Source: Lophium mytilinum
Lineage: Eukaryota
Reading direction: 5' to 3'
Assembly: GCA_010093605.1 (NCBI GenBank)
Contig: MU004183.1
Location: forward strand, 1,054,001-1,118,000
DNA length: 64,000 nt
The notes below the pieces were generated by a model that saw only the letters and a program-made list of their open reading frames with translations, ran no database searches and was not told the DNA's origin. Shown here piece by piece: positions 1 through 53,594 of the stretch. Position 1 is the stretch's first letter, and each line of letters starts with the position of its first letter. The translations under genes and the position numbers were made by a program.

Positions 1-793
1 CTGCCCTCCACACGACTCGACCCGATACTGTCGATCTCGTCCATGAAGATGATGCTGGGCGCGTGTTCTCGGGCCATGACGAAGAGTTCTCGCACCATAC
101 GGCTTCCTTCACCGATGTATTTCTGTACGAGTTCGCTGCCGCTGACTCGGATGAACTTGCAGTCGGCGTGATGCGCCACTGCTCGAGCCAGCAGTGTCTT
201 TCCCGTTCCTGGAGGACCGTATAGCAGCACACCCTTTGGTTGCGCTATACCGAGCGATTCGAACAGCTCCGGATGTTGCAAGCCAAGCTCGATGACCTCC
301 TTGATTTCCTTGATCTGCTGGTCCAGACCTCCGATCATGTCGTATGTGCTGTCGGGCACCTTCTCCACCATCATCAACGATACGAGGGGATCGACGGAGG
401 ATGGTAGCATCTTCTCGAGCTTGTAGGAGTCGCTGAGCAGGGTGACTCGCTTGCCGACGGTGAGTTTGCTTATGTCCACGTTGTCGGATATGTCAACCAC
501 TGCGAAAACACTGTCAGAGCTGTCTCGGGCATCAAGAAAAGCAAGAAGAAAGACGCACCGTATTTTCCCTCGGGATGCACTTTCACCAGGACCTTCTTCG
601 TGCCCATCACCTTGACCACCTCACCAACGTACGAGCCAGGCTGCTGCAATAGGCCCAACTCCTCTCGTAGTAACCGCACGCGCGAGTTGTAATCGTTCCG
701 TTGGGCTTCCAGTCGGCGGAGTACAGCTTGGCCTTGGATGATCTCGAGCTTCATGCTCTCGATCTTGTTGTGGAAGAAGGTGTCGAGCGCCAT
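1..793 (-). CDS. RPT6: 26S proteasome AAA-ATPase regulatory subunit Rpt6/Sug1 (3' end runs off the window)
   Basis: ATG at 793 gives [19 protein letters not shown]...[35 protein letters not shown] intron at 500-558. Exon 2 encodes [30 protein letters not shown], Walker [56 protein letters not shown]. Confidence 0.96.
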
Positions 794-1499
794 GGTGGTG
801 GATGGCGGAGGGCGAAACGGGTTATATTTCGGGAGTGAGCGAGGTGGGAAGTATGGAACCGGTAGTAGAGAGGAAGCTAAAAGCGCAGGAGCCACAAGGC
901 AGAGCGCAGAGTGAAATTAGATGGTTCGAATGTCGTGGTGATGGCGGTGATGGCGATGCGTCTTGCTTGGTGTTGAGCGCGGTCCGCTCGAGCTGTTGAC
1001 GGCTATACTCCGGCTTCTTCCGTCATCCAGCCCTTGCTCTAACAGGCATAAAGCAGCTGCATCCACAACACCCCGTGGGGAATGCAGGCCTATGAGAGAA
1101 TATGTAGTAAATATGTTAGGTAGTAGGTGTACAAGTCTGCCCCGCCATCACGCGCTGTTTCCGCCGTGTGAATTCAGTGATTGTGCGATTATGCAGTCGC
1201 CAGCGCACGTGTCCACTTCCCGGGGAGCCGGCCGTGCACATGCTCCAACCTCCACGCCTGTTTCTAGGTGGTGATCATCCTCATCTGCCCAGACTGCTTC
1301 CCTCCGCAGAAAGTCCCCACATCGGACTTTTCGAGTGACGGCCTGCCTGATATGCCCTCATTCTCCTCTCCTCTGCCCCTCCCGCGCGGCTATTCCATGG
1401 TGTAGCCTTTACCACAGCAAACACCTTGATAAGCTCCCACGTAGCTAGCTAGCATCACAGCCAAGACACCAACAAGCTCACGCGCGTCTTTTCGGCACC

Positions 1500-4400
1500 A
1501 TGGTTGACGGCAACCGCCCCGGCACTGGTGGTGCAGAGGAAGCTTCGTCTTCAGATCCGGCAAAGAGGAGTTCTAGGAGGAGCTCTCAGTCTTCGAACGA
1601 TGGCAACACCGCCAGCTCGGGCGCACAATATTCCAACCTCACCTCGAGCGCAGACTCGATACGAAGGCGGCCGCAAGGTATACAGACGCAGCCCACAGGC
1701 TATGGTCAGACTCCTTCAGCCTTCCTTTTTCTCAGCGACTGACTCCATGACAGGTTCTATAACTTCCCCCATACATCGTCAGCGCGTCGCGTCTCCGGAA
1801 AGACAAGCGAAACCTAAGAAACCAGGCATGGGACGAAGGGCGACTTCGACACATATTCCTCATAAGGGCCAGGAGTTCTCAGTGGACGATGCCGAGTACG
1901 AAATTGTCGAAGACGATCCACCACTACAAAGGGCCGCGAAGAACCCTACGCTAAGAAGACAGCCATCCACACTGAGACGGAAGACAACCGCGCAACCTCC
2001 GCAACTTGCTACCGTGAATTCGCAAGATGGCGAGGATGCAGTTGAGCAAGTGCGATCAGGCGCCCCAACCGAGCCAGAGCTGAACCCAAGTTCATCTGGA
2101 GAGGAAGGGACCTTGATGGCTGATGAAGGGGAGGCCGAGGCTTTTGACGACGAAGGCGGAGATGACGACGGGGACGATGACGGAGACCTTAGCGATGCGG
2201 AGAGCTTCACACTCAAGGACCGACAAGAAGCCATAAACGTAACTCATCCCTTTGGCATACGCATATGGAAGCCTGCCCTCTACAAGAAAGACAGATCCGT
2301 GCAAAAGAATGCCGAGGGTGACATTCATTCTACCCCTGGACTGTTCGTCAGCAACTGGCTTTTCTTATTCAACATTGTCTGGACCATGCTTTTTGGCTGG
2401 TGGCTAGCCGTTGTCGCTGGTGTGGCATCGCTCGTCTGCTGCGTCTTTGGCTGTCTAGACCAAAGCTCCTGGGAATATTCAAAAGTTCTCTTCCATCTAG
2501 CGATATACTTCTTCTATCCTTTCGGTAAATACGTCAAGCTCATGCAAGACGAAGCTTACGCAGAAGAGGACGAAGGGGAAGGGAGAAGTATTAGCGAATA
2601 CGAGCAGTGGCAGAGTGGAGACATTGAAGAAGGTCGGCTGTTCTTTGGACCTCCTAGCAGATCTCTGGTCGGTCGCCGACGGAACAGCATTGATTCTGCT
2701 GATGAGACCACCAGTCTTCTCGGGAGGGCTGGGAGAGTTAGCGCTAGTCCTCAACGAACTGATACTGCAAAGGCCAAGAGACGCCTTTTTGGACGCGGAA
2801 AATGGAATTTTGGCAGAGTCGTGTTCTTCTTCTTATTCTACGGGCTGCTAACTCCTTCTCTGTTCTTCGTTTCTGGAATTTGTTGGCTCCTCGTTTTCAC
2901 CATCCCGATGGGCAAGGTCGCCCTTCTCCTCTTCGATCATCTCCGAAGACACCCCCTAGCTCTTTCGTTTCATTCAGACAGCGCGGACACCCGTCGACCA
3001 GGAGACCCGGCCTCTTCCATTCTACTCTGCACCTATCGCGCTGTAGGCTCGAAATACTGGAAGTATACTATCGATGGTACTAACATCTTCCTCATCAACC
3101 TACTGTCAATTGTCGCCTTCACAATCTTTGACTACTGGGTGCTCGACGTTGCACTTGGTCTCAAGATCGGGATCACAAACCAGTTCTTCGTGTTTGCCCT
3201 GGCCCTATTCTCCATCATTCCGCTTGCGTACTTCATCGGCCAAGCCGTTGCCTCAATCTCAGCCCAGTCTTCAATGGGTGTCGGTGCCACAATTAACGCT
3301 TTTTTCTCAACAGTGGTTGAAGTCTTCCTCTACTGTGTGGCGTTGAATAAAGGCAAAGCGCAGTTAGTTGAAGGGAGCATTATCGGCAGCATATTTGCTG
3401 GTATCCTCTTCCTGCCCGGTTTATCGATGTGTTTCGGAGCCTTGAAGCGGAAGACTCAGCGCTTCAACGTCAAGTCAGCCGGTGTAACTTCAACGATGCT
3501 GTTGTTCGCCGTAATCGGAGCCTTTGGTCCTACGCTGTTCTATCAGATCTATGGAAGCGTAAGTTCATGCATTCGACATACTTACAAAAGCTAATTGCCC
3601 TCTAGCACGAATTGAATTGCCATACATGCATCAAGCATGACTATGGAAATGAACAAGACTGTCGGCGATGCTATTACTCACAGGTCCCAGCTGTCCATGA
3701 CCGATTTTATATCGAAGCCGTGCGGCCATATATTTGGTTCGCAGCTGTGATGCTCTTCCTCTCCTATGTGATAGGCTTATTATTCACTCTAAGAACTCAC
3801 GCAGCCGTTATTTGGAGCAGTGAATTAGACGAGAAAAAGGCGGACAAGGCGGACATGGCTGCAAGCTATATGCACAGCAGTGGACAACTGGATGGCCCAG
3901 GCGTGCTTACTCGGCAAGCAACAAACACATCCATTGGTGGCGGCCTCGCTCGTTCTGATATTCGCGAAAGTCAACTCTACAAACGAATTTTAGGGCAATC
4001 GTTCAAGCAAGTCGGTCTTGGTCCAAATGGGGAGGTGCCCGAGGAAAGGCCACGTTCGATGAGAAGCAATGATGGCCAGACCCCACACGTCGTTCCTCCA
4101 AAGGATTCAGAGGACGACAGAGAGCACACTAGCCTCCACCTCGCCGGACTATCGGAAGAGCAAAATCACACCCTCGTGCTACACGTTGCTGAAATGGCCG
4201 CAACGGCAGCTGCAGTCGCAGCTCGAGACGCCACCAAGGCTCCTCGCAAGGCTGCCCACCTCGCTCATACATCCGCGAAACACGGTGGCAATAGGCCGCC
4301 TGTAACCAGGAGTGGAACTTTCGCTGAACAGGCAGAGGATACCCTGCCTGGACAAGGACAAGCTGCCGGGGGCCACGATGCTCCGAATTGGAGTCGGACG

Positions 4401-5136
4401 AAGAGTGCCGTTATCTTGCTCACTGCTACGCTGGCGTATGCGGTGATTGCAGAGATACTAGTCGGCACTGTGGATGCTGTGCTTGAAAACGTTGATATCG
4501 ATGAAAAGTTCCTCGGCATAACGCTTTTCGCTCTAGTTCCTAACACTACAGAGTTTTTGGTATGCTTAACCCGCTCAGATTATTATGAAGATGTGTGCTG
4601 ACCATGTGGCATTGAATAGAACGCCATATCTTTCGCCATGAACGGCAACATTGCCTTGTCTATGGAGATCGGTTCAGCGTATGCGCTGCAAGTCTGTCTA
4701 CTCCAGATTCCGTGCCTGGTATTGTACAGCGCGATACATGGTCGCTACATTGACCCCAACAAGATACTCAATCACACATTCAGTAAGATTTCCCCGTCGC
4801 TTCGCAAAAAACTACTATCCCAGATGTAATTTCCATCCAACTGTGCCATTCCTAACATTCTCTTCAGCGCTTCTCTTCCCGCAATGGGATATGGTAACCG
4901 TCATCCTCTGCGTATTCCTCCTATCGTACATGTACGGCGAAGGCAAGAGCAACTACTTCAAAGGCTCCATCCTCATCCTCTCATACCTCGTCGTCATTGT
5001 CGGCTTCTACTTCTCCAGCTTCAACGACTTTGAGCGTATGGGAGTGGATGCGTCGGATACTCTTGCCGTAGGGGGGCTGGTGCAGTCGATGTCTTTCAAG
5101 ACGATTGGGAGGCCGAGTAATGGCAGAGCGTATTGA
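1500..5136 (+). CDS. VNX1: Vacuolar cation/H+ exchanger of the CaCA family, Vnx1 type (N-terminal YccF-like membrane repeats)
   Basis: Spliced from ORFs 1500, 1504, 3612, 4638 and 4651. Probable introns: 1678-1753, ~3559-3606, ~4560-4619, ~4783-4868. Motifs: DRQEAINVTHPFGIRIWKPALYKK, alpha-1 repeat GATINAFFSTVVEV...GSIIGSI, alpha-2 repeat LVPNTTEF/NAISFAMNGNIALSMEIGSAYALQV, and GEGKSNYFKG. Confidence 0.9.
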
Positions 5137-5955
5137 AAAAACACTGGCGACGGGAGGAGGTGGATAATGGAACGGGATGTGCTTTTCAATAGAGGCTGCG
5201 TTGCTTTTTTCTGGGATTGGTGAGAGGTTCGATTCACTGCATACTTTACTCGTAGTTTCATATATCTTTTGTTGTGCATGGGGAAACAGGCATAGCGCGG
5301 CGTTTTTGGGGTTTTGCTCGGGGTTTTGAGAGTGGAACGAAGCGCCGTTGGTAGCGGTAAATAGGTGCACTTGTGAGTAGTTGCGAGGTAATACTGATAT
5401 GCACCTACTGCTTATATTACACGTCGTCTGATCAGACTTGTGAGTTCCTGTCTAGTGAGAAGTTACATCGAGGATCGATACCTAGCCTCACTGGAAGATA
5501 GCCTGGTTCTGTGAAATCAAGCACCATTACACCTCTCTCTTTACATCAGAGCTAGCCTCATCAACTGCCATCTCAGCCACTTCTCAACCGCCCGAACTGG
5601 CAGGCTGAAAGCTTTCAAGTTCGTAGGCGTTGTGATGGATAGCCCTGACTTGTTGCAAGTGTAGGATCGCCAACAGTCAATTGGACGGTGAATGCACGAA
5701 TATAACCGATGACTGTACGCAATAGGGCAAGCTAGGCTGTTCCAAATTTGAATGGAGACCTTGAAGAATGTGCTCTATGACATGAAGAAGTGAATGTTGT
5801 GGGAGTCCTACTCATCACGTGAATGAACCGTGCCACTTCAGCCACTCTCCGTTCTTAGCGTCACACATGCATTAAAGGCAGCGGCCAAACCCACGCATGT
5901 CCACAACCCAAAGCAGCACCTCAAAGACCACTTCCACACAAGGCACTCAGCCAAC

Positions 5956-10984: not shown

Positions 10985-13900
10985 ATGGATGTGGCTGGCG
11001 TCCGAGACCGCATATCGGCTACGCTTGATCCCAACGCAGACATCAGACGTCAGGCCGAGCTTGACCTGAAATATGTGCGTGTCCAGCTCGCGGGCCCCCC
11101 ACATTGCTCCCCTCACTAATCTTGCCCAGGCCGAAGAACAGGTTGGCTTTACCGACGCCCTGCTGAACATTCTCGAGGCCGAGCAGGACCATGGAGTGCG
11201 CCTGTCGAGTGCGTGTAATGCCTCACTTATTCCCCGCACAGAGAAATTGACATTGCTGTAGCTGTCGTCTACCTCAAGAACCGCATCACCAAGGGATGGG
11301 CTCCGGCCGAGGACTACACCCAGGCCAAGCCCATACCTGACAGCGAAAAGCAGTCCTTCCGAAACCGCCTCGTGCCTATTCTCGTCGCATCGCCGCAGCA
11401 GGTTCGCGCTCAGCTGATCCCTACTCTCCAAAAAATCCTCTCCTACGACTTTCCGGATTCGTGGCCGGGCTTCCTCGATATCACTGTGGCGCTGCTCAAT
11501 GCGCCGGACGCGAGTACGGTATACGCGGGGGTGCAATGCTTGTTGGCTCTGTGTCGGATCTACCGGTTCAAGGCGGGCGAAAACAGGACACACTTTGACG
11601 AAATCGTGGCCGGGACTTTCCCGCAGCTGCTGAATATTGGCAACAAGCTTGTGGGGGAGGACAGTTTGGAGGCTGGGGAGATGCTACACACGCTCCTCAA
11701 GGTCTACAAGCATGCCATATATGTGCGTTTACCAGAGTGCACCCACAAGACATACATACTGACCATTTCCCAGTTCGACCTCCCCACTCCTCTGCGCGAA
11801 CAACAGGTTATGGTTGGCTGGTGTACTCTGTTCCTGACTATCGTCGGAAAAGAGCCGCCTCAGAGTTCCATGCCGGAGGATGTTGATGAGCGAGAAGCCA
11901 ATCATTGGTGGAAGTCGAAGAAATGGGCCTTCGCCAACCTGAACCGGCTATACGTGAGGTATGTTGAGATGGGACACGCTTGTATCGCCACAACTGCTAA
12001 TAGACCTTCTAGGTACGGCAACCCAGCGACGCTAGGAAAGAATAATGACGTCGACTACTCCGACGTCGCGAAGTATTTCATCAATACGTTTGCGCCGGAG
12101 ATCCTCAAGGGCTACCTGACGCAGGTCGAGAAGTGGGTCGCGAAGACCACTTGGCTGAGCAAAGCGTCCCTGTTCTACATCCTCAACTTCCTGGACGAGT
12201 GCATCAAGCCAAAGTCTATGTGGAATTTGCTTAAACCGCACACGGAGACCCTCATCTCACATCTCCTTTTCCCTGTGCTCTGCCAGTCGGATGAAGATAT
12301 TGAGCTTTTCGAGACCGAACCCCAAGAGTATCTCCACAGGAAGCTAAACTTCTACGAGGAGGTCACATCCCCTGATGTTGCTGCAACAAACTTCCTAGTC
12401 ACTCTTACAAAAAGCCGTCGGAAGCAAACCTTCACTGTCCTGAATTTCGTCAACGGTATCGTCAATGCCTATGAAACCGCCCCAGATGATCAGAAGGACC
12501 CACGACAAAAGGAGGGCGCACTCCGGATGATTGGAACACTTTCGGGCGTAATCCTGGGGAAGAAGAGCCCGATCGCAGACCAGGTCGAATACTTCTTTGT
12601 GCGACACGTCTTCCCCGAATTCCGGAGTCCTCACGGCTTTCTCCGAGCGCGTGCTTGTGATACCTTGGAGAAATTCGAACAGCTCGACTTCAAAGACCCA
12701 AACAACCTCATCATCATCTATCGGAACATTCTTGAGTCAATGGCCGATCCGGCTCTGCCTGTGCGAGTCGAAGCTGCACTCGCTTTACAACCTCTGATCC
12801 GCCACGAAATCATCCGAACTTCAATGCAACAAAACATTCCCCAGGTCATGCAGCAACTACTGAAACTCGCGAACGAGGTCGATGTCGATGCTCTGGCGAA
12901 CGTTATGGAAGACTTCGTCGAGGTTTTCGCTAACGAGCTCACTCCCTTCGCCGTTGCTCTGAGTGAACAGCTGCGAGATACCTACCTCCGCATCGTCCGG
13001 GAGTTACTAGAACGCAACCAGTCGAAGGATGAGGACGACAACTACGGGGACTTTTTGGATGATAAGAGCATAACCGCTTTGGGCGTTCTCCAAACCATTG
13101 GAACTCTAATCCTTACACTGGAGAGCACTCCGGACGTGCTTTTGCATTTGGAAACGATCCTCATGCCAGTCATTACTATCACTCTTGAGAACAAACTATA
13201 CGGTCCGTATCTCATACCGTATCAGCCACAATTACTAACGCGACATTAGATTTGTACAACGAAGTCTTCGAAATCATTGACAGCTGCACTTTTGCTGCCA
13301 AGAGCATTTCTCCTACCATGTGGCAGGCGTTTGAGCTTATTCATCGCACATTCAAAGCCGGCGCCGAGCTCTATCTAGAAGGTATAACCATTATATCGAA
13401 GATTGCCAACACATGCTGACATTTCGTAGATATGCTCCCGGCTTTAGAAAACTTTGTCAACTACGGCTCCGAGACCCTCATCCAAAACCGACCCTACCTG
13501 GACGCCATCATCGACATGGTCCGCACTATCTTCAAGGACGATAAGGTGAATGGCGTCGACAGGATATGCGGATGCAAGCTTGCTGAGATTATCATGCTGA
13601 ACATGCGCGGTCACGTTGACGAGTATGTTCCCGAGTTCATCCAGCTTGCCATGGTGGTCCTCACAAACGACGAGCCCAAGGTCAAATCTCTACGGATACA
13701 CCTCATGGAGGTGGTTGTCAACGGAATCTACTACAACCCCCAGCTCGCCCTTCATATGCTGGAGACCAACAACTGGACGAACAAGTTCTTCAGCCTTTGG
13801 TTCTCCAACATTGACAGCTTCACCCGCGTTCACGACAAAAAGCTCTCCATTTCTGCAATTTGCGCACTTCTTACATTGCGAGCCGAGCTTGTTCCTATCA

Positions 13901-14577
13901 GCGTTCAGCAAGGTTGGCCTCGACTTCTGCAAGGCATTGTTCGGCTCTTCCAGACCCTTCCTGCTGCTCTGAAGAGTAAGTGTTCCTATTCAAGTCTGTT
14001 GGCATGAACAACACTAATATGAAATCTAGACCGAGAAGAAGCCAAGAAGGAAGAAAACTACGACTTTGGGAATGACTACGATGACGAGGAGGAGGAAGAG
14101 TGGGATGGTAACGAAGATCAGTGGAACAACGAGGCCGATGAAACTGAAGATGTCAAAGATGAGAGTGCGGCGTATCTGGAGTTCTTGAACGAAGAGGCAA
14201 GTGGCACCAAACTCGGGGAAGCGTTCAAAGCTAATGATCTCCAGGCCCAGAAGTTCACTGCCGTTAGCGACGAAGATGACGACGAGCTTGAGGAAGAGAG
14301 CTTGCTCGAAACTCCTCTTGACAAAGTAGAGCCATACAGCATGTTCAAGAATGCTCTGATGCGTAAGTGCAAAGCCATCGCCCCTCCCAAGACCTATCAC
14401 TAACTTTTATAACCAGAGCTCCAACAAGAACAGCCAGCGTTGTACGACAATCTCACCAAGAACCTGAACCCTGAAGAACAGCAGGTCGTCCAGGCCGCCG
14501 TCCACCAAGCCGACCTTCTCGCCCAGCAGGCAGTCGCTGCTGAGCAAACAAACGGCGACGCTGTAGCCACGCAATGA
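10985..14577 (+). CDS. NMD5: Importin-beta family karyopherin Nmd5/Sxm1 (importin-7/8-like)
   Basis: IBN_N-like start MDVAGVRDRISATLDPNADIRRQAELDLK, then AVVYLKNRI, WWKSKKWA, FLRARAC, RVHDKKLSI and an acidic C-terminal region. Nine introns: 11075-11129, 11209-11261, 11723-11773, 11959-12012, 13203-13249, 13382-13429, 13976-14029, 14197-14244 (GC-AG), 14363-14416. Confidence 0.92.
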
Positions 14578-15828
14578 GCATAGTGGCTGTTTCGTTGGAT
14601 TGCAATCATAAAAAGCCGAGTGCCAGCTTTTTCAAATAACCTTCTTCCCGCCTTAGTCCAAATATACCACATCATTCTCCCTTTCGAGGGATTCATATTA
14701 CCCCCACCCCTTCTGGAGCCAGCCTGCATGAAAACACCCACACAACCCCGGCGTTTGATGATTTTTTGTCTTTTACACAGGTGGAATGGCGTCAAGAGGG
14801 AAAGCGGTGTCGTTTAGTGAGTTGCGAATTATTTCTCCTTCTCTCTCTTTTTGTGCGTCGTGGCGCATGAAGCTGATTGAGGGAATTTGAAAATATGGGA
14901 GGGAATGATGGGATTGGGGGGCATAGTTGATGAATTGAAGATGGGGTGATTTGAAGAAATGGAGTTGAAGATCAAACGATTACAGAGAGTGGGCGACCAA
15001 AGGGAAAACGGGGGCGGGCGAGGGCGGGCGGCAGTTTAGTCGTGTAGCTAGGATTTTTTCTTTTTCTTTTGAGGCTTCGTCTTTCCCCCGACATCGAGAA
15101 TCATCCGAATCAGTAGACTCCTTACCCTAGCACCTACGTACCCGTTGCATCTTTACTCCGTGGTATGCGGACGTAATTTGAGGAATGGTGGAATCTTGTT
15201 GTTGTTTGTTGCAGCGGTTTTCAGAATGGGTTTGATGATTGAGGTGATAAGTGGTGTGTTTGGGTGAGGTCGGTGAGGGTGTGACGAGTTTTGGGCGGGT
15301 ATATAGTTGTTGGGAGAGATGGATCATGGGCTAAATCAAAGATGAATGGAGTACACTGGTTGGTCCACTACCTACGTGCTCCGGCTCATTGTGTCTCTTT
15401 ACTGTCTACTTCAATGTTGAGGTGGCATGGTTGGGTATTAGGCTAGTCAAAATTACTAGGAGCTCGGCCCAGGTCTTGAGTGAGTAGATCGACATCAGGT
15501 CGGATAATCGCTCGGGGGACTTCAGATAGTGATGAGGTAGTGTATAGAGAGTAGTGCCCGAGCACTAATCTAGAGACTTTCTTTAATTTAATACCTTCAC
15601 TAGAGCAACTCTGGATATCGCACCGCATGTCCCCTTTCAACCATCCCATCGCATCGCACCATCTCATCATAACCGACTATCCCTCCGCTCAATACGCTTC
15701 ACTCATAAACTCCTCCCAACGCTCAGATAATGCACCGCTGATATCCCACAATCAACCTCGCCGGCCCGCAACTTCTATGATACTGGAATCAATCCCATGC
15801 GTCCCCTAACTAATGCTCTACACCCCAT

Positions 15829-17672
15829 CTAACCCACCGCAAGCGCCTTCAACACCCCCTCCTGCCCCCACTTCAGCACCTTGAACTTCGAGATAAAGTC
15901 ATCCCGGTTCACATACCCGCCACAGATGCGCCGCTTCCCCGTGAACGCCGAGCGGCCGTGCATGACGCGCCAGTTATCGAAGACGACGACGCGGCCGGGT
16001 GTGAGCTGGCACCAGTACTCATACTCCGGCGCGGAGATCAAGGCGTGCCATTTCCTGTTGTCGAGACACGCAGGTTAGTTGTTATTCGGAAAACCCAACT
16101 AAAAGTGGGGGGAAGGAGGGAAAGGAAGGGGAGGAAAACATACGCAGCAGCTTCATACCACCCCCCAACCACCTCAAGCGGCAACTCGACCCCCGCGCGA
16201 TCACTCGAGTTCCAGCGCACCTGCAGCAGGCGCCCATCGCGCTCGTCGTGCAGCAGCACGGGGAAGCCGCGGTAGGGCTGGATGCTGATGCCGTCGTTGC
16301 CGCTGGCGTGCGCGTGCACGTTGACGCGGCTGAGCAGCTCGTAGGCCTGCGGGTCCTGGGCCTTGAGGTCGGCGGCGGCGCGGAAGCCGTCGACGAGGAG
16401 CGAGGCGCCGCCGCTGCCGTCTGTGTGCGAGAGCAGGTGGAAGGCTTGCAGGCCGGCTGGGTCGGAGAAGTAGGTCGTGTCTGTGTGTGCGTCTAGTGCG
16501 ATGTTGGTGTAGGCGGTGTCTTTGGAGGCGAGGTCGGAGGTGAAGTCGTAGAAACCGCCGTAGTGGGTGACGCGGATGAAGGAGATGCGCTCGAGGAGCT
16601 GCGAGGTGGCGGAGGGGGTGGCGGGGGTGTTGTCGATGTAGCAGAAGCCGTATTCGCGCTTGGGAGGGGTTAGTGAGGGGTGGAATATAGGGGGTAATAG
16701 GGGGGGTTACGATTTTGGAGAGCCACTCTTTTAGTCCTTCGTCGGAGTTCATCGCGGCTTCGTATTGGACAATTGGGGGGTTGTCGCTGATTGAACTGTA
16801 CCAGAGTGTGGTTCTAGCAAGAGGTTAGCAGGACCCAGTAGCTGTCTCAGAGACGTCTCATACTTTTCGAGGCCTTGACGTATTACACCATTGTTCTTCA
16901 AGGCGGCTTGGGCGAGGAAATCGTCGTTGTAATAGCTCTCATGGCCATCACTCCCTATAGACTGGTTAGTGTGTCTTCTCCATTCAGTACTCTAGAACAC
17001 TTGCAAGAAACTCGAACTCCACTATCGTCTTTCACAGCTGATTTGACAGAGATGTCTCGCGGAATCTAGGCATTCGTTAAAACCATATGATGCAGAGGTT
17101 TTGAGTTAGGGTACCTTGAAAGTGTCGAGAAGTCGCTGCTTGGTAACATCATGCACGCAAGCGCTGCATTGGCAATTATCCCTAATCGAGTGAGTCTTTG
17201 ACAAATTGAAGCGGGGATTTGGCAGACCTCAGCCAAATGTTCGGGCTATGTGGAACATATTGGGTTAGTATAAATACAGCCTTAAGAGCCCGAAGGGAAA
17301 CACTCACATGCCCACGAAGTCATTGACAGTGTCCGAGTACGCTTTGATAGCTGTCCCTTCCACGATCGGAGTCTTGAGAGACGATTCCAGATGCGGAGAA
17401 GCGGGGAAGTGCTGTTTCAACATCAATATAGCATCAAAATGCAAACGGATGTGCAACCTACCGCGGCTGCTGCTGCACGGCTTGTGCTCGAGTCGTGGAT
17501 TACCCGAGTACTCTTGCTAGCGGTAGAGGTTCTTCCTGGATAATTGTGGCGTGGGACTGCACCGCTAGGGACGCGGAGTGATCGCCGGCATGCCTTGGCA
17601 GAAATCAGCAATGATCCGAAGCCAATGCACGTTTCAACAAACCTGGCTGAGCCCCCGAAGAAAGTGAGCCAT
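15829..17672 (-). CDS. Trimethyllysine dioxygenase (Fe/2-oxoglutarate, TauD/BBOX family; carnitine biosynthesis), probably mitochondrial
   Basis: Multi-exon model starts MAHFLRGLSQ/ACRRSLR, an Arg-rich presequence-like stretch. Zn-site motif WLRDNCQCSAC...WSDGHESYY, then YGFCYIDNTP, IRVTHYGGFYDFTSDLASKDTAYT, facial-triad HTDTTYFSDPAGLQAFH, and FDNWRVMHGRSAFTGKRRICGGY. Contains an 18-nt micro-exon (17228-17245) and a GC-AG intron (16955-17004). Confidence 0.9.
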
Positions 17673-18096
17673 GGTGACGCACTAAAGGAGTGGATGGTTG
17701 AGAAGAGATGAGAGGGACGCAAGTTCCAGAGATGAAGTGATGCTCGCTTAGAATCGCTTAACCCGGTATTATGAGGGTCGACTACCAAAGAGCTTGACAT
17801 TCAAAGAAAAGCTAGTCGAAGTGTAGAGATGTTCATCAGGGGCAATCTAGGTCTCCAGAATATAGGAATGAGGAAACATCAACGCCATAGAATTTCGATA
17901 TCTTATCCTAATTTAATTACGATGTAATCGTATAATCTCCACCTAGTGAACTAAAACAGATGTTCATACATTCCATAGACATGTCCTCATAGCTTGAACT
18001 ACGCGGAATTGCTCCGCAAATAGTGGCGTTCTTTACTGTCTGCCCCTCCTCCGCGTTCCGAAGCAAAAATTCACTCACACCACCACATGCAAAATC

Positions 18097-18103
18097 AAAA
18101 AAA
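18097..18103 (-). terminator. RNA polymerase III oligo-dT terminator of tRNA-Arg
   Basis: T7 run on the minus strand (A7 on plus), 12 nt downstream of the tRNA 3' end. Confidence 0.8.
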
Positions 18104-18115
18104 TTGCAGATTCTG

Positions 18116-18187
18116 CGACACCAGAGGGACTCGAACCCTCAGTCTCTACCACCGGAAAGTAGCGCCTTACCATTAGGCCATGGTGCC
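18116..18187 (-). tRNA. tRNA-Arg, anticodon CCG, intronless, 72 nt
   Basis: Minus-strand sequence GGCACCATGGCCTAATGGTAAGGCGCTACTTTCCGGTGGTAGAGACTGAGGGTTCGAGTCCCTCTGGTGTCG. Acceptor stem GGCACCA/TGGTGTC, A box TGGCCTAATGG, anticodon stem CTACT/GGTAG with loop TT-CCG-GT, T arm GAGGG-TTCGAGT-CCCTC. A TATA-like tract lies at 18212-18224. Confidence 0.95.
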
Positions 18188-19014
18188 TATGGAAAGACTG
18201 CAGCCCGATTGTATAATATATATAGGATGGCAGATAATACAGCTTTGACGACTTTCACAGCAGCCGCGGAGATTCTCTAGAACGCGGGAAATAAGCGAGC
18301 GAGCAGCCAAGGCGCATTGAAATGGATCATGTTACGCCTATGAAATGGCTGAAAATATGGGGACTGCTCTTAGCGTTCGCTGTGTTCGGTATCAATGATG
18401 AATACGCCCATGCATAGTGCGAACTCTGGATAAATTATACATTCGAGCAGCAAACGAATCTACTGGGACAAAGCTCTTATATTTAAAGTTTACAGCCTAG
18501 ATAATTATGTCTGCGGCCGAAACCGATCGTAGTGGCGGCTCTTTATCGCTGCCTTTGACATGTCGTCTCGGAGCCAGGGGAAGTGGCGGTGATTTTATTC
18601 CAACCACCCCCTCCTTTAGCGTTCACAAAGAAGCCTATTTCTCTACGGTATAAGGGCCTTGGAGCTGCCTACAAGGTCCTTTAGAAGGCTATCGACGTAT
18701 GGACTCCGCACATTAAAACTGGCGTGCATAAAATGGTGTTTTAGTCCTATTCTCACGGTCTACTTCTAGAGGCTGTTAAACCTTTTAAATCTATGTCAAA
18801 ATTGCACATCCCAATACCGTGAGCAGAGATTACATCGAGAACTCATCAATACTACAGACTTCAGGAAGCCCCTATTATATTATCAACATTGCCAGACGGG
18901 GTCGCATAAGTATCCATTTTCAAGACCTCTAACCAGCTAAGAAACGTAAAGTCGACTATGTAGATATCGAAACCCTGTACCGCTCTCTACGAGACAATCT
19001 TCGCTCCGATTATC

Positions 19015-19045
19015 CTGAAGTCTTTCCATAGGCACCATGGCCTAA
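19015..19045 (+). repeat. Inverted partial copy of the tRNA-Arg(CCG) 5' leader plus first 15 nt
   Basis: 19019-19045 (AGTCTTTCCATAGGCACCATGGCCTAA) is the exact reverse complement of 18173-18199. The match extends to 30/31 over 19015-19045 vs 18173-18203. Confidence 0.93.
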
Positions 19046-20373
19046 AAGTATCTAGTGAATTAGATCTTTCGCTGAGCTGTGAAGGTCGGGAGCCCGACCT
19101 CTTGCTTGCTCAATACGCTGATAAAAAACTCGATATGATACTGCTTGAAGTACTCCAGCTCGTCTGTGCGAATCTGGAAGAAATGTAATATGCCTCACAA
19201 CATAGATTTCATCGGGTATTTGTGGGTAGTATACGCACTTGGTCGCCGCTGAATGAGGTTCTTGCATGGTAGGGAGTCGATCATGGCTGTTTCAAAACCT
19301 GGCCAACCGGCGATGCCTACATTTCTACACTTGTTCTAGAACCTTGATGATAGGCCAGAGTACTCTAAGCGGTGGCAAGAGGCGGCACATATAGCATGAC
19401 CGAATCTCGCTTCTGTCATTGTGGAAGAGAGGAAGGCCGAGGATGAGACTGGGCACTTCTTCCACAGCACAATAAACGGCAGTGATAGTGACATTATACT
19501 ACTTGCCTACTCATGCTAGGAGGGCTTCAACACAGTATCAAAAGTCTAGATGGAATGTAGAAGCTTCGGAGTCGAGTATTAGACGTGCTCCTACTTGAGT
19601 ACGAAGCCACTTTTCCCACCTACCCAGGCGCACGAAACGAGAAGCGAAACGCACAAGTTGTGGGACTGCAGAATGGGTCATTCCACTCCTTACCGCAAGT
19701 TAGATGTGAAGTCTTCTAGGCCCTGTAATAGGGCTTTTCTGTATAGCGGCTGTCAATTACCTTACACCTATAGACGAAATGCAAAACTGAATGGGAAGGT
19801 TTCAAACCTGTAAATCAGGTCTGTAATATTGACGGGAAATTGGAGCTATAACTCATGTAGTGTGCGAAGCTAATAAGCCACTCGAGGCACCTCACGCCCA
19901 TACGTAAACATAAAATAACGTGTAAAGGTTGTTAGGCTGAAAATTAAAACTAAACTTGTCAATTTCTATATATGACTTTAGTATTAGCTCATTAAACGTA
20001 TATTCATAACGCAATTGAGCCGCTACCATGTCCATTATCGGTCGTCACCTTCACGATATCTAGCCTTCCCTTTCTAGGAGTTATACTGATATTCTAATAC
20101 ACTTCTGAAAATTTGTCGATATTCGCAAGGCATTCGTCCAGCTCTATGATGGCTCATTCTGGATTATGGATATTGTTGTTGTCGTTGGAGACCGGTTCTA
20201 TTGAAGGTCGATGGTGACGAACAGAAAGTAGAAGAAGCCGACGACGACACGTGATCTAGACTAGCGTCGGCCTTGGCATGGATCGAAGCTGGGGTTCGTC
20301 AGCGACAGCTGCCTCAACTTAAGCACCCAACTACAAAACAACAGCTCCACCACTCTACAACCTCACCACCAAC

Positions 20374-21833
20374 ATGGCAACTCTCGAAAACCTTGAGGAC
20401 CTCGAGCGCGAGGAGAAGAATGATGCGGAGATGAAGGACGCTGAGTCGGGGGAGAAGCCGGAAGATGTACTGGACGAGGAGATTCTCAACTCCAGCACAC
20501 GAGACATAGTAGCACGGCGGAGATTATTAGAGAATGACACGCGGATCATGAGGAGCGAGTTTCAGCGGCTGTCCCATGAGAAGTCGTCTATGCACGAGAA
20601 GATAAAGGACAATCTAGACAAGATCGAGAACAACAGGTATGCGACGCCGCCTCACAAGCCATGACCATAATTTACCAAGCAGTCATGCTAACTATAACAA
20701 GGCAACTACCATACCTTGTCGGCAACGTCGTTGAGATCCTCGACTTAGATGTCACCGCCGAAGCCGCCGAAGAGGGCGCAAACATCGACCTCGACGCCAC
20801 TCGTGTGGGCAAGTCCGCTGTCATCAAAACCTCAACCCGGCAAACGATCTTCCTTCCTCTTATCGGCCTAGTGGATCATGAGAAGCTCAAGCCTGGCGAT
20901 CTCATCGGTGTGAACAAGGACTCATATCTCGTTCTGGACACATTACCCGCCGAATATGACAGCAGAGTCAAGGCTATGGAGGTCGATGAGAAGCCGACGG
21001 AGAAATACACTGATGTCGGAGGCCTGGACAAACAAATCGAGGAGCTTGTGGAGGCAGTAGTATGGCCGATGAAGGAGGCGGAGAGATTCAAGAAGATCGG
21101 TATCAAGGCGCCTAAAGGTATACGTCCTTTGGAATGAAGTTTGCGTACACTGGAACTTCACTAACTCCGAATCATAGGTGCTCTAATGTACGGACCACCC
21201 GGTACTGGCAAAACTCTCCTGGCCCGAGCCTGCGCCGCGCAAACCGATGCTACCTTCCTCAAACTCGCCGGTCCTCAGCTCGTACAGATGTTCATCGGTG
21301 ATGGCGCTAAGTTAGTCCGAGATTGCTTCGCTCTGGCGAAAGAAAAGGCACCTTCTATCATCTTTATTGACGAACTTGACGCTGTTGGCACAAAACGTTT
21401 CGACTCCGAAAAGTCGGGTGACAGAGAAGTGCAGCGAACTATGTTAGAATTGCTCAACCAGCTGGATGGTTTCGCATCGGATGATCGGGTCAAGGTTCTC
21501 GCCGCTACCAATCGCGTGGACGTATTGGATCCTGCTCTTCTACGTTCTGGTCGTTTGGACAGAAAGATCGAATTCCCCCTGCCAAACGAGGAAGCCCGTG
21601 CTCAGATCCTTCGAATCCACTCCCGCAAGATGACGGTTGACGAGGGTGTGAACTGGCCGGAACTTGCGCGCAGTACAGATGAATTCGGTGGTGCACAGCT
21701 GAAGGCTGTCTGTGTGGAAGCCGGTATGATTGCATTGAGGTCTGCTCAGCAGAAGATCAGTCACGAGCATTACGTGGATGCTATTTCGGAAGTCCAGGCC
21801 AAGAAGAAGGACACCGTGAACTTCTATGCATAG
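20374..21833 (+). CDS. RPT5: 26S proteasome AAA-ATPase regulatory subunit Rpt5 (6A/TBP-1)
   Basis: Motifs [96 protein letters not shown], and the C-terminal HbYX motif NFYA. Two introns (~20637-20701, ~21118-21177). Confidence 0.97.
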
Positions 21834-51970: not shown

Positions 51971-53594
51971 TGCGTGCGGTAGTAGTCGAGGATTGGAGAT
52001 GGTGATAGTCGGGATTGCAAGGTCCCAAAACCCAGGCTTGAGGCGAGGTGGTGCGCGAGGTCAAGTTCTCCACTGTGAGGTACAGAGGGATGGAGCTGTT
52101 GGCGTTACGTTGTGATTTGACTAGTGGTCCGTTGATTAAAAACTGATGAATTGCGGGTGTTCTTGTGTAAGAAGACGAAAAAACCCGGGTAGTGCGTCGT
52201 AAGATAGCTCTGTGGGAAAGGGCTCGCAGTGCTGTGGATACGGTAGGTAGTGAGCTCGATCTTGGCGGTTAAAGCGATGGTGTAGCTGATGTGTGATGGG
52301 ATGTTGGTGATGAATAAAAGCTATTGCGAGCTCTCTCAGATTCGACGTCGGATACAATAGTCTTGCAAGAAAGAGCATTTTATAGCATGACTAGCAGTGG
52401 TAAAGAGAGACACAGCGCGTGGAAGGTAACAAGGGCAGGCTCTATGCTTACCTTCTACATGCATACGGACCGAAGCCTCGTTGAAGTTTTAGGAATACCG
52501 CATGAGGGGAACAAGAACTGAATCAGGGGAGGTAACGACACCGTGTGTCAGCGCAAATGATACAGTACTATGACAAAAGCTTGCGTATGCTTGTGGTCAC
52601 CGCGTCTCAAGCTGTTCTCCTTTCAAAACTATCAAGAAATTATGCTTGAACCCCCTTAAAATAATAGTGCTTAACGTTGTGTGAGGTGGCCTAGCAAGTT
52701 TAAAGATTATTCAGTGGATTCATGTACATCTAAAGTAGCTTTACAAAGAATACCTTGGTGGACTACAACATCTCGACAACATCTGGGTCCTCCATCTTGA
52801 ATGCGCACGCCACGAATGATGATATGCTCGCTCTTTGCACCACCCTACCCTTGCCGAGAGATATGACACACTCAAATTCGAATAGTGGATGTGGCATACG
52901 TTGACAGCAGACAGCAAGGACTCCTTACTTCCGATCAATGAGATTGAAACGATCGGCGAGGCTGCAGCGTAGATTATTCTAAGTGGCCATCTCGCGCTCA
53001 TACTAATATTTACGACGCTTTTAGGAGTGCCTAAACATGATATTAAAAATGTGGGCAGCGCATGATGATGTTGCGTTCTGATTCAATAGCAGATGACAGC
53101 GTAAAGACATTCTCGGCGAGCTTCCAGACTGTTAAAGACGACATATTGACATCTTTCTCTGACTTTTGACAGTAAAATGAAGCACTCTTGATTGCCATAG
53201 AAAGCGCAGATAGCTGACGAGTATCCTCACGCTATATTGATGAAACTTCAAATGCCGAATGCTTTTTTATCACAAAAATTTGGCGTACCAATGCTTTACT
53301 ATACCTGTCACATAGTAGTTCCTTTGATACCACTTTCGACCTTAATGGACCACCCGCAATATCTCTTGAGAGTACTGATTTGAACATCGCAGGTCATGAT
53401 ACGTGGGCCATGATCGGGGAGTACCTAGGGGGCGTGAAGTGGGGTCTTGGCAAATTTAGGATCGACAGAACCTCAGCTTAGCTCGCAGCATCACCTCTCC
53501 ACCTGCGTAGCATTGACCGTCTCCACTACCCGCTGAATATCTTCATGTGCCACTTATAGCTGTAGGCGCTCAGCACCTACAATCAGTTTCGACC

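What the first reader, a model, noticed from the sequence alone, without database searches (positions are those of the whole stretch)
18173..19045. Inverted duplicate of the pre-tRNA-Arg(CCG) 5' end brackets about 820 bp of unannotated DNA
Seen: 19019-19045 is a perfect 27-bp reverse complement of 18173-18199 (30/31 when extended). The copy has 12-16 nt of 5' flank plus only the first 15 nt of the mature tRNA, stopping inside the A box (TGGCCTAA then AAG instead of TGG). Because it includes unprocessed flank, it came from genomic DNA or pre-tRNA, not mature tRNA. The copies point outward around 18200-19018, which holds the tRNA's TATA-like upstream tract. Established: tRNA genes are replication-pause sites, rearrangement hotspots and mobile-element targets, and tRNA-Arg(CCG) is single-copy and essential in S. 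cerevisiae. Inference: this could be (a) the scar of a template-switch or inversion event, (b) an invertible segment that would swap the Pol III upstream region of a rare-codon tRNA, (c) the terminus of a decayed tRNA-targeting element, or (d) a source of antisense RNA to the pre-tRNA leader/RNase P site if transcribed leftwards.
Basis: partly seen in the sequence, partly recalled or inferred. Interest (0 to 1): 0.72.

Follow-up and report, generated by a model that had tools for sequence, protein, structure and literature searches.

The report
Inverted tRNA-gene snippets pasted upstream
The backwards copy of a piece of this fungal tRNA gene is real and not unique: about one tRNA gene in ten in this genome has such a short backwards copy a little way upstream, most likely harmless DNA-repair scars in which the tRNA gene served as the template.

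Summary
The 27-bp inverted repeat is real (30/31 extended) and is assembled in one orientation from raw reads. It is not a one-off. Of 60 clear tRNA genes tested, 7 carry inverted 31-57-bp copies of their own DNA upstream: 8 fragments, the main ones 0.4-1.5 kb away, none downstream. Eight further candidate loci had none. In 751 kb of this genome, all 7 short inverted pairs more than 400 bp apart were tRNA-derived. The fragments span -32 to +85 and keep leader and introns. Three are internal while the gene stays whole. So they are copy-paste insertions from tRNA-gene DNA, not inversion ends, transposon termini or processed retrocopies. The TATA tract sits beside the intact gene, as in relatives, and the gene's orientation is ancestral. 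Best reading: a templated inverted insertion (foldback or template switch at a break or stalled fork), with the Pol III-occupied gene as preferred donor; probably neutral. I found no paper describing this polar signature.

The parts
18116..18187 (-). tRNA-Arg(CCG) gene, intronless; donor of the copy
   Evidence: ARAGORN; Rfam RF00005 63.5 bits; orthologues at the same place in related fungi
18097..18103 (-). Pol III terminator T-run
   Evidence: B-box plus T-run pattern match
18173..18203 (-). Donor segment: 16 nt of leader plus tRNA nt 1-15 (exact core 18173-18199)
18212..18224 (-). TATA-like tract, -37 to -25 from the mature 5' end; native upstream context of the intact gene
   Evidence: TATA at -34 to -44 in 7 of 16 relative loci; none next to the copy
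18204..19014 (.). Single-copy non-coding interval (811 bp) between the arms; no repeat, RNA family or protein family found
19015..19045 (+). Inverted copy of leader plus tRNA nt 1-15 (30/31; exact 19019-19045); lacks the end of the A box and the B box, so it is not a Pol III gene
19046..20373 (.). Rest of an expanded tRNA-RPT5 spacer (2.19 kb here, about 0.5-0.85 kb in relatives); single-copy
16143..18030 (-). Context: 5' part of a TauD-family 2OG dioxygenase gene (TMLH-like); an RNA-type contig begins at 18030, 86 bp past the tRNA 3' end
20374..21833 (+). Context: proteasome AAA-ATPase gene (RPT5-like), divergent from the tRNA

Best explanation
The copy is a local templated inverted insertion, one of a recurring class in this genome. 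A DNA 3' end about 0.8 kb upstream (a broken end, or a nascent strand at a fork stalled near the TFIIIB-bound gene) briefly primed on the tRNA gene. It copied about 30 nt in the opposite orientation, let go, and was rejoined. The tRNA gene is the preferred donor, probably because Pol III occupancy leaves its DNA single-stranded or stops resection or the fork there. The gene and its promoter stay intact and the copy is most likely neutral. SHOWN: copy-paste geometry, recurrence, strong enrichment for tRNA donors, all copies inverted and upstream, intron and leader DNA retained. INFERRED: the break or stalled fork, microhomology priming, why tRNA DNA is exposed, and neutrality.
For: Recurrence: 7 of 60 clear tRNA genes carry 8 inverted fragments of 31-57 bp at 83-100% identity, all upstream at 60-1538 bp, none downstream (found). 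Specificity: 751,488 bases held 14 inverted pairs (25-80 bp, at least 85% identical, gap 100-3000). Seven are tRNA-derived and include all 7 with a gap above 400 bp. tRNA genes plus 40 bp are 11 kb of this, so P(at least 6 of 13, this case left out) is about 9e-7. DNA template: one copy has 32 nt of leader starting about 8 bp past the TATA tract, and three keep intron sequence. Copy, not inversion: internal fragments with an intact gene, and native TATA position. Precedent: yeast foldback inverted insertions, mostly 5-34 bp and up to about 150 bp (PMC11724301, passages). Donors of templated insertions are enriched near tRNA genes and R-loops (PMC12214859, passages). TFIIIB is an asymmetric fork block (10.1101/2020.01.29.925644, abstract; 10.1101/2022.01.10.475700, passages).
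Against: No pre-insertion allele is available, so junction microhomology and the deletion at the site could not be measured. Yeast foldback donors lie within about 60 bp of the break (41-nt loop), not 0.4-1.5 kb away. The upstream bias is weak: ORF-free room is larger upstream than downstream, and larger at the positive loci (p=0.03). Direct-orientation copies could have been lost by deletion. A last batch of 8 candidate loci (2 clear tRNA genes, +-1.85 kb) had 0 copies. None of 16 orthologous loci from related fungi has a copy. Dispersed repeats lie upstream of 4 of 7 positive versus 7 of 53 negative genes (p=0.017), which leaves room for a transposon role.
Confidence: 0.62

Rival explanations
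1. Transposon-driven capture. Insertion, excision or abortive gap repair of small DNA transposons (MITE families A/B/C, TA-flanked and Tc1/mariner-like by their ends) upstream of tRNA genes copies a piece of the nearby gene as filler, or carries it inside the element.
For: Families A/B/C lie within 2 kb upstream of 4 of 7 positive and 0 of 53 negative genes. Leaving out the two loci that supplied the seeds gives 2 of 5 versus 0 of 53. At tRNA-Arg(ACG) the copy abuts a MITE composite, and a sister composite with the same tRNA piece sits at C6:513288. The spacer in this window is about 1.4-1.7 kb longer than in relatives.
Against: This window's interval and flank have no repeat hit, and neither have the Ala and Glu loci. 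Only 1 of 7 copies touches a MITE. With an unbiased repeat set the contrast falls to 4/7 versus 7/53. The families are dispersed genome-wide, not tRNA-targeted.
Confidence: 0.14
2. RNA-templated copy. Nascent unspliced pre-tRNA was reverse-transcribed into a nearby break, like the tailless retropseudogenes of mammals.
For: Three copies start 4-12 nt into the leader at C/A steps that could be transcription starts, and they end in the D-, anticodon or T-loop, as tailless retropseudogenes do (PMC5322556, passages).
Against: No target-site duplication longer than 5 nt at any of 7 copies. One copy has a 32-nt leader, three are internal with introns, and none is spliced. All are inverted and local, whereas retrocopies should be dispersed and in either orientation. 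Genome searches covering three of the copies found only one distant sister, inside a MITE composite; a fourth was crowded by a repeat family.
Confidence: 0.1
3. Inversion breakpoint duplication (staggered break), or an invertible segment that swaps the tRNA's upstream region.
For: The outward-pointing arms would allow it geometrically. In some related fungi the tRNA plus TMLH block is inverted relative to importin and RPT5 (L110, L107).
Against: The TATA tract is beside the intact gene, not the copy. Internal fragments at three sister loci would have broken the gene. There is one orientation and no joint at the arms in contigs that do show a depth-9 side variant elsewhere. Spacer lengths and arm sequences differ at every locus.
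Confidence: 0.05
4. Functional cis element: the copy makes antisense RNA, or a long hairpin with the pre-tRNA, and so tunes tRNA supply.
For: Recurrence with constant polarity, and high identity of some copies (43/43, 52/53).
Against: The copied segment differs in place and length at each gene. It is absent from 16 orthologous loci. Folding around the copy is no better than shuffles (z about -1.1). Identity falls gradually across loci (83-100%), as expected for neutral decay.
Confidence: 0.05
5. Chance match or assembly artefact.
For: The DNA runs may be the assembly's own source, so they are not biologically independent.
Against: Score 28 against a shuffle maximum of 16. A read-derived contig of depth about 152 spans both arms unchanged. 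Six sister loci exist, several with diverged copies that a chimeric read would not give.
Confidence: 0.01

Closest known systems
Foldback templated inverted insertions at double-strand breaks in S. cerevisiae (Pol delta plus NHEJ/Alt-EJ; PMC11724301, passages read)
   Same: Short (tens of bp), inverted, copied from the same locus, donor left intact, no target-site duplication.
   Different: The yeast donor lies within about 60 bp of an induced break and is set by a local microhomology. Here the donor is 0.4-1.5 kb away, is always a tRNA gene, and the events are fixed in a natural genome.
Templated insertions whose donors are enriched at tRNA genes and R-loops (PMC12214859, passages; PMC11372161, passages)
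   Same: tRNA-gene DNA acts as a preferred donor of copy-paste fragments.
   Different: Those are distant inserts scored at one induced break, and PMC11372161 says it did not analyse insertions from near the break. Here they are in cis, inverted and upstream.
Tailless retropseudogenes of mammals (PMC5322556, passages)
   Same: 3'-truncated tRNA pieces, sometimes with precursor leader, ending in loops.
   Different: Those are dispersed, L1-made and flanked by 8-30-nt target-site duplications. These are local, all inverted, lack such duplications, and include internal intron-bearing pieces.
Dada DNA transposons that insert into tRNA genes (PMC3706591, PMC8869645; passages)
   Same: Target tRNA genes, often at the A box, and leave a tRNA 5' fragment beside other DNA.
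   Different: Dada splits the gene into two directly oriented parts with a 6-7-bp duplication and encodes a transposase. Here the gene is whole, the fragment is inverted and no transposase trace was found.
Inversions with staggered-break inverted duplications (Ranz et al. model; recalled, not read here)
   Same: Short inverted duplicate at both ends of an interval.
   Different: That model predicts the original upstream sequence next to the copy. Here it is next to the intact gene.

Membership tests
Local templated (foldback/template-switch) inverted insertion | Short inverted copy of nearby sequence with the donor intact | tested here: met
Local templated (foldback/template-switch) inverted insertion | Template is genomic DNA (non-transcribed or unspliced sequence kept) | tested here: met
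   32-nt leader at tRNA-Leu; introns kept at Ala, Glu and Thr. For this window's own copy (12-16-nt leader) DNA and pre-tRNA cannot be told apart.
Local templated (foldback/template-switch) inverted insertion | Microhomology at the priming junction, short or none at the other | tested here: inconclusive
   Imperfect match at the gene-proximal end in 3 copies (window, Leu, Ala) but at the distal end in others; no empty allele available
Local templated (foldback/template-switch) inverted insertion | Dependence on Pol delta and end joining | not testable with these tools
   needs genetics
Tailless retropseudogene | Target-site duplication of 8 nt or more | tested here: not met
   longest flank repeat 5 nt or none at 7 of 7 copies
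Tailless retropseudogene | 3' truncation in a single-stranded loop | tested here: inconclusive
   true for Arg-CCG, Leu, Val and Arg-ACG; not for the internal pieces
Tailless retropseudogene | Dispersed, either orientation | tested here: not met
   8 of 8 local and inverted; one distant sister inside a MITE composite
Dada transposon | Insertion splits the tRNA gene into two direct parts with a 6-7-bp duplication | tested here: not met
   gene intact, fragment inverted, rest of the tRNA absent beyond the copy
Dada transposon | DDE transposase or multicopy element body | tested here: not met
   17 ORFs without a Pfam hit better than E 0.088; single-copy
MITE with terminal inverted repeats | Interval plus arms occur in many copies with TA or other target duplication | tested here: not met
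Invertible DNA switch | Both orientations present in the population | tested here: not met
   one orientation in contigs of 2 runs of one sample; contigs drop rare variants and other isolates are untested
Staggered-break inversion | Original upstream neighbour of the duplicated piece lies beside the distal copy | tested here: not met

The most novel reading that the evidence does not exclude
Pol III genes in this fungal lineage drive a specific, polar mutational process, either intrinsic to TFIIIB-stalled forks or run by a transposon machinery tethered to them. It repeatedly pastes gene fragments backwards into their own upstream DNA. The same break-and-copy activity may seed rearrangement breakpoints beside tRNA genes and the unusual spliceosomal-type introns that these tRNA genes gain.
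Probability: 0.2. Interest if true: 0.8.

Novelty: new variant of a known kind. Interest (0 to 1): 0.5.

Why it matters
tRNA genes are known from yeast assays as fork barriers and as donors of templated insertions, but the fixed products in natural genomes are poorly described. A countable signature (inverted, upstream, 30-60 bp, at about 10% of tRNA genes) can be scored in any assembled fungal genome. It can be compared with replication direction and repair-gene content, and it makes a direct test of how Pol III genes damage their neighbourhood over evolutionary time. The single copy in this window is probably junk; the pattern is the result.

Tried and rejected
Repeat or element in the interval: own-genome searches of 17950-19300 and 19046-20370 found only self matches, and MITE profiles gave a best E of 0.34 in the window. 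Decayed gene: 17 short ORFs gave no Pfam hit better than E 0.088; the 74-codon frame across the copy is single-copy. Degenerate whole-tRNA duplicate: no alignment beyond the arm. Early idea that all copies start at the transcription start and end in loops: dropped after the internal and 32-nt-leader copies appeared. Early idea that L198 holds a spliced retrocopy: it is tandem direct duplication with internal loss. Exact tRNA pattern in metagenome contigs: 0 hits. Expression: no RNA holder on record; the guessed-RNA run X3 has no cover over 18104-19405, which is no evidence either way. RIP-like dinucleotide shift: only mild in 18600-19014, not pursued. A second inverted 12/13 match (18249-18261 / 19076-19088) is within shuffle range. 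Literature searches that returned nothing describing this pattern: (listings only; subscription journals are mostly not covered). No supplements were read. About a dozen further B-box candidates, and whatever tRNA genes the patterns missed, were not examined.

Full report
Observation. The window is G000:C3:1054001-1118000 of a 43.4-Mb, 49-contig assembly of an intron-rich filamentous ascomycete. An intronless tRNA-Arg(CCG) gene lies at 18116-18187 on the minus strand. Bases 19019-19045 are the exact reverse complement of 18173-18199, and the match is 30/31 over 19015-19045. The next longest exact inverted repeat in the window is 15 bp, and 30 shuffles of 17600-20400 reached a score of at most 16 against 28. 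The 27-mer occurs nowhere else in the assembly at up to 3 mismatches. Contigs assembled from two public DNA runs of one sample cover the region without a difference; one spans it in a single piece, with no joint or loose end at either arm. These runs may be the assembly's source, so they argue against mis-assembly but say nothing about other isolates.

The interval. 18204-19014 and 19046-20373 are single-copy at the search's sensitivity. They hold no Rfam family and no protein family among 17 short ORFs. The tRNA does not continue beyond the copy, and no flanking duplication longer than 5 nt is present. Of 177 metagenome stretches encoding a relative of the neighbouring TauD-family exon, the best 80 were returned, and 16 of them carry the orthologous tRNA. 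In several (for example L102, L104, L111, L116/L117, L124/L125) the order TMLH-like, tRNA, RPT5 and the tRNA's orientation match the window. Their tRNA-RPT5 spacer is about 0.5-0.85 kb against 2.19 kb here. TATA lies at -34 to -44 in 7 of the 16 and at -37 beside the intact gene here; none lies beside the copy. None of the 16 has an inverted copy; some are near-duplicates and three hold under 1 kb of upstream DNA.

Recurrence. I scanned other tRNA genes of the same genome. The Rfam search listed 42 matches from 63 scored candidates; 38 were taken with about 5 kb of flank, and 4 were dropped as AT-rich, short-contig or partial matches. B-box patterns gave 55 more loci with about 3 kb of flank, of which 22 genes were accepted as clear tRNAs by acceptor-stem and A-box score. 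About ten more are probably tRNAs with long introns and had no copy. Among the 60 clear genes, 7 carry inverted copies of their own sequence. They are Arg-CCG (-16 to +15, this case); Arg-ACG (+3 to +59, 95%, 846 bp upstream, plus a +50 to +85 piece 60 bp upstream, 83%); Val-CAC (-9 to +34, 100%, 1538 bp); Leu (-32 to +21, 98%, 778 bp); Ala-CGC (+64 to +104, 90%, 459 bp); Glu-TTC (+23 to +66, 93%, 415 bp); and Thr (+147 to +185, 95%, 1117 bp). All 8 fragments are inverted and upstream. The direct-orientation matches were neighbouring paralogues, one tandem duplication (L198) and one 14-bp chance hit. A final batch of 8 candidate loci (2 clear tRNAs, 1.85 kb of flank) had none. The rate is therefore about 7 in 62-75.

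Background. In 751,488 bases of these loci (about 4.5 kb counted twice) there were 14 inverted pairs of 25-80 bp, at least 85% identical and 100-3000 bp apart. Seven are the tRNA cases. The other seven have gaps of 356 bp or less and look like ends of small transposons. tRNA genes with 40 bp of flank make up 11 kb, giving P of about 9e-7 for 6 of 13 once this case is left out. The loci are centred on tRNA genes, so background pairs near locus edges are somewhat under-counted. The upstream bias is softer than it looks, because ORF-free room is larger upstream than downstream and larger at positive loci (p=0.03).

Mechanism. Three copies are internal pieces while the gene's 5' part is intact, and the native TATA sits by the intact gene. 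That excludes inversion with a staggered break and points to copy-and-paste. A 32-nt leader and retained introns point to a DNA template, although unspliced precursor cannot be excluded for every copy. Yeast work shows foldback inverted insertions of mostly 5-34 bp made by Pol delta plus end joining (PMC11724301, passages). It also shows donors enriched at tRNA genes and R-loops (PMC12214859, passages), and TFIIIB as an asymmetric fork block (10.1101/2020.01.29.925644, abstract; 10.1101/2022.01.10.475700, passages). I infer that a free 3' end 0.4-1.5 kb upstream primes on exposed tRNA-gene DNA, copies a few tens of bases and is rejoined. Two versions fit. One is foldback of a resected break whose resection ends at the gene. 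The other is a nascent strand of an approaching fork switching to the displaced non-template strand. I cannot separate them. Direct-orientation products may simply collapse by deletion (inference).

Transposon link. MITE families lie within 2 kb upstream of 4 of 7 positive and 0 of 53 negative genes. The seeds came from two of the positives, so the independent figure is 2 of 5. With an unbiased repeat set it is 4 of 7 versus 7 of 53 (p=0.017). At Arg-ACG the copy abuts a MITE composite that has a sister 1.6 Mb away carrying the same tRNA piece. MITE movement may supply some of the breaks, or both may simply accumulate in roomy spacers. This window's own interval shows no repeat.

Comparison and novelty. 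It works like a templated inverted insertion. It fails the defining tests for tailless retropseudogenes (PMC5322556, passages), Dada transposons (PMC3706591 and PMC8869645, passages), MITEs and invertible switches. Six full-text searches returned no description of inverted tRNA-gene fragments upstream of their own genes. The library lacks most subscription journals and no supplements were read. Earlier notes of this scan describe similar one-off scars in other genomes and spliceosomal-type introns in this genome's tRNA genes; they are unchecked leads, not support.

Verdict. The copy is probably a neutral scar, but it belongs to a statistically clear, polar, tRNA-specific class: a new variant of a known kind, interest 0.5.

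Noticed in passing
L110:4668-4807, L107:2320-2458, L116:4711-4830, L117:6854-6970, L129, L157, L158: Orthologues of this intronless tRNA-Arg(CCG) in related fungi carry GT/GC...AG spliceosomal-type inserts at different positions (after the D-arm, at the T-arm), as seen.
   Followed up: no
L110, L107 versus window 13432-21833: In some relatives the tRNA plus TMLH-like block is inverted relative to the importin and RPT5 genes, so one breakpoint lies upstream of the tRNA in that lineage.
   Followed up: partly
L051:1501-1935 (G000:C6:512934-513370) and L004:1990-2490: A composite of two MITE-like families carrying about 55 nt of tRNA-Arg(ACG) exists twice on contig C6, 84% identical; a third composite at C5:830394 lacks the tRNA piece.
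   Followed up: partly
L198:2670-3394: A tRNA gene with two tandem direct upstream copies that keep both ends but have lost or replaced the middle.
   Followed up: partly
L213, L215, L219, L220, L224: A family of B-box units ending in the same short T-tailed motif without a tRNA acceptor stem; probably the SINE-like family of earlier notes.
   Followed up: no
window 17642-18030: An RNA-type contig of the TMLH-like gene begins at 18030, only 86 bp past the tRNA 3' end, and has an intron at 17592-17642.
   Followed up: no
window 19514-20273: Low-depth (3-5) contigs of the guessed-RNA run lie in the spacer upstream of RPT5; they could be DNA carry-over.
   Followed up: no
window 19083-19100: A small perfect hairpin (7-8-bp stem) 38 bp beyond the copy; folding of the region is no better than shuffles.
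   Followed up: partly
window 52672-52713: Short match to a dispersed repeat relic also found in the Leu and Thr intervals.
   Followed up: no
L103:1-96 and 1385-1480: Perfect 96-bp inverted duplicate at a metagenome contig end, probably an assembly artefact.
   Followed up: no
L192:2600-2684 and 5070-5156; L251:1600-2400: Paired or tandem B-box-bearing units that are not canonical tRNAs.
   Followed up: no
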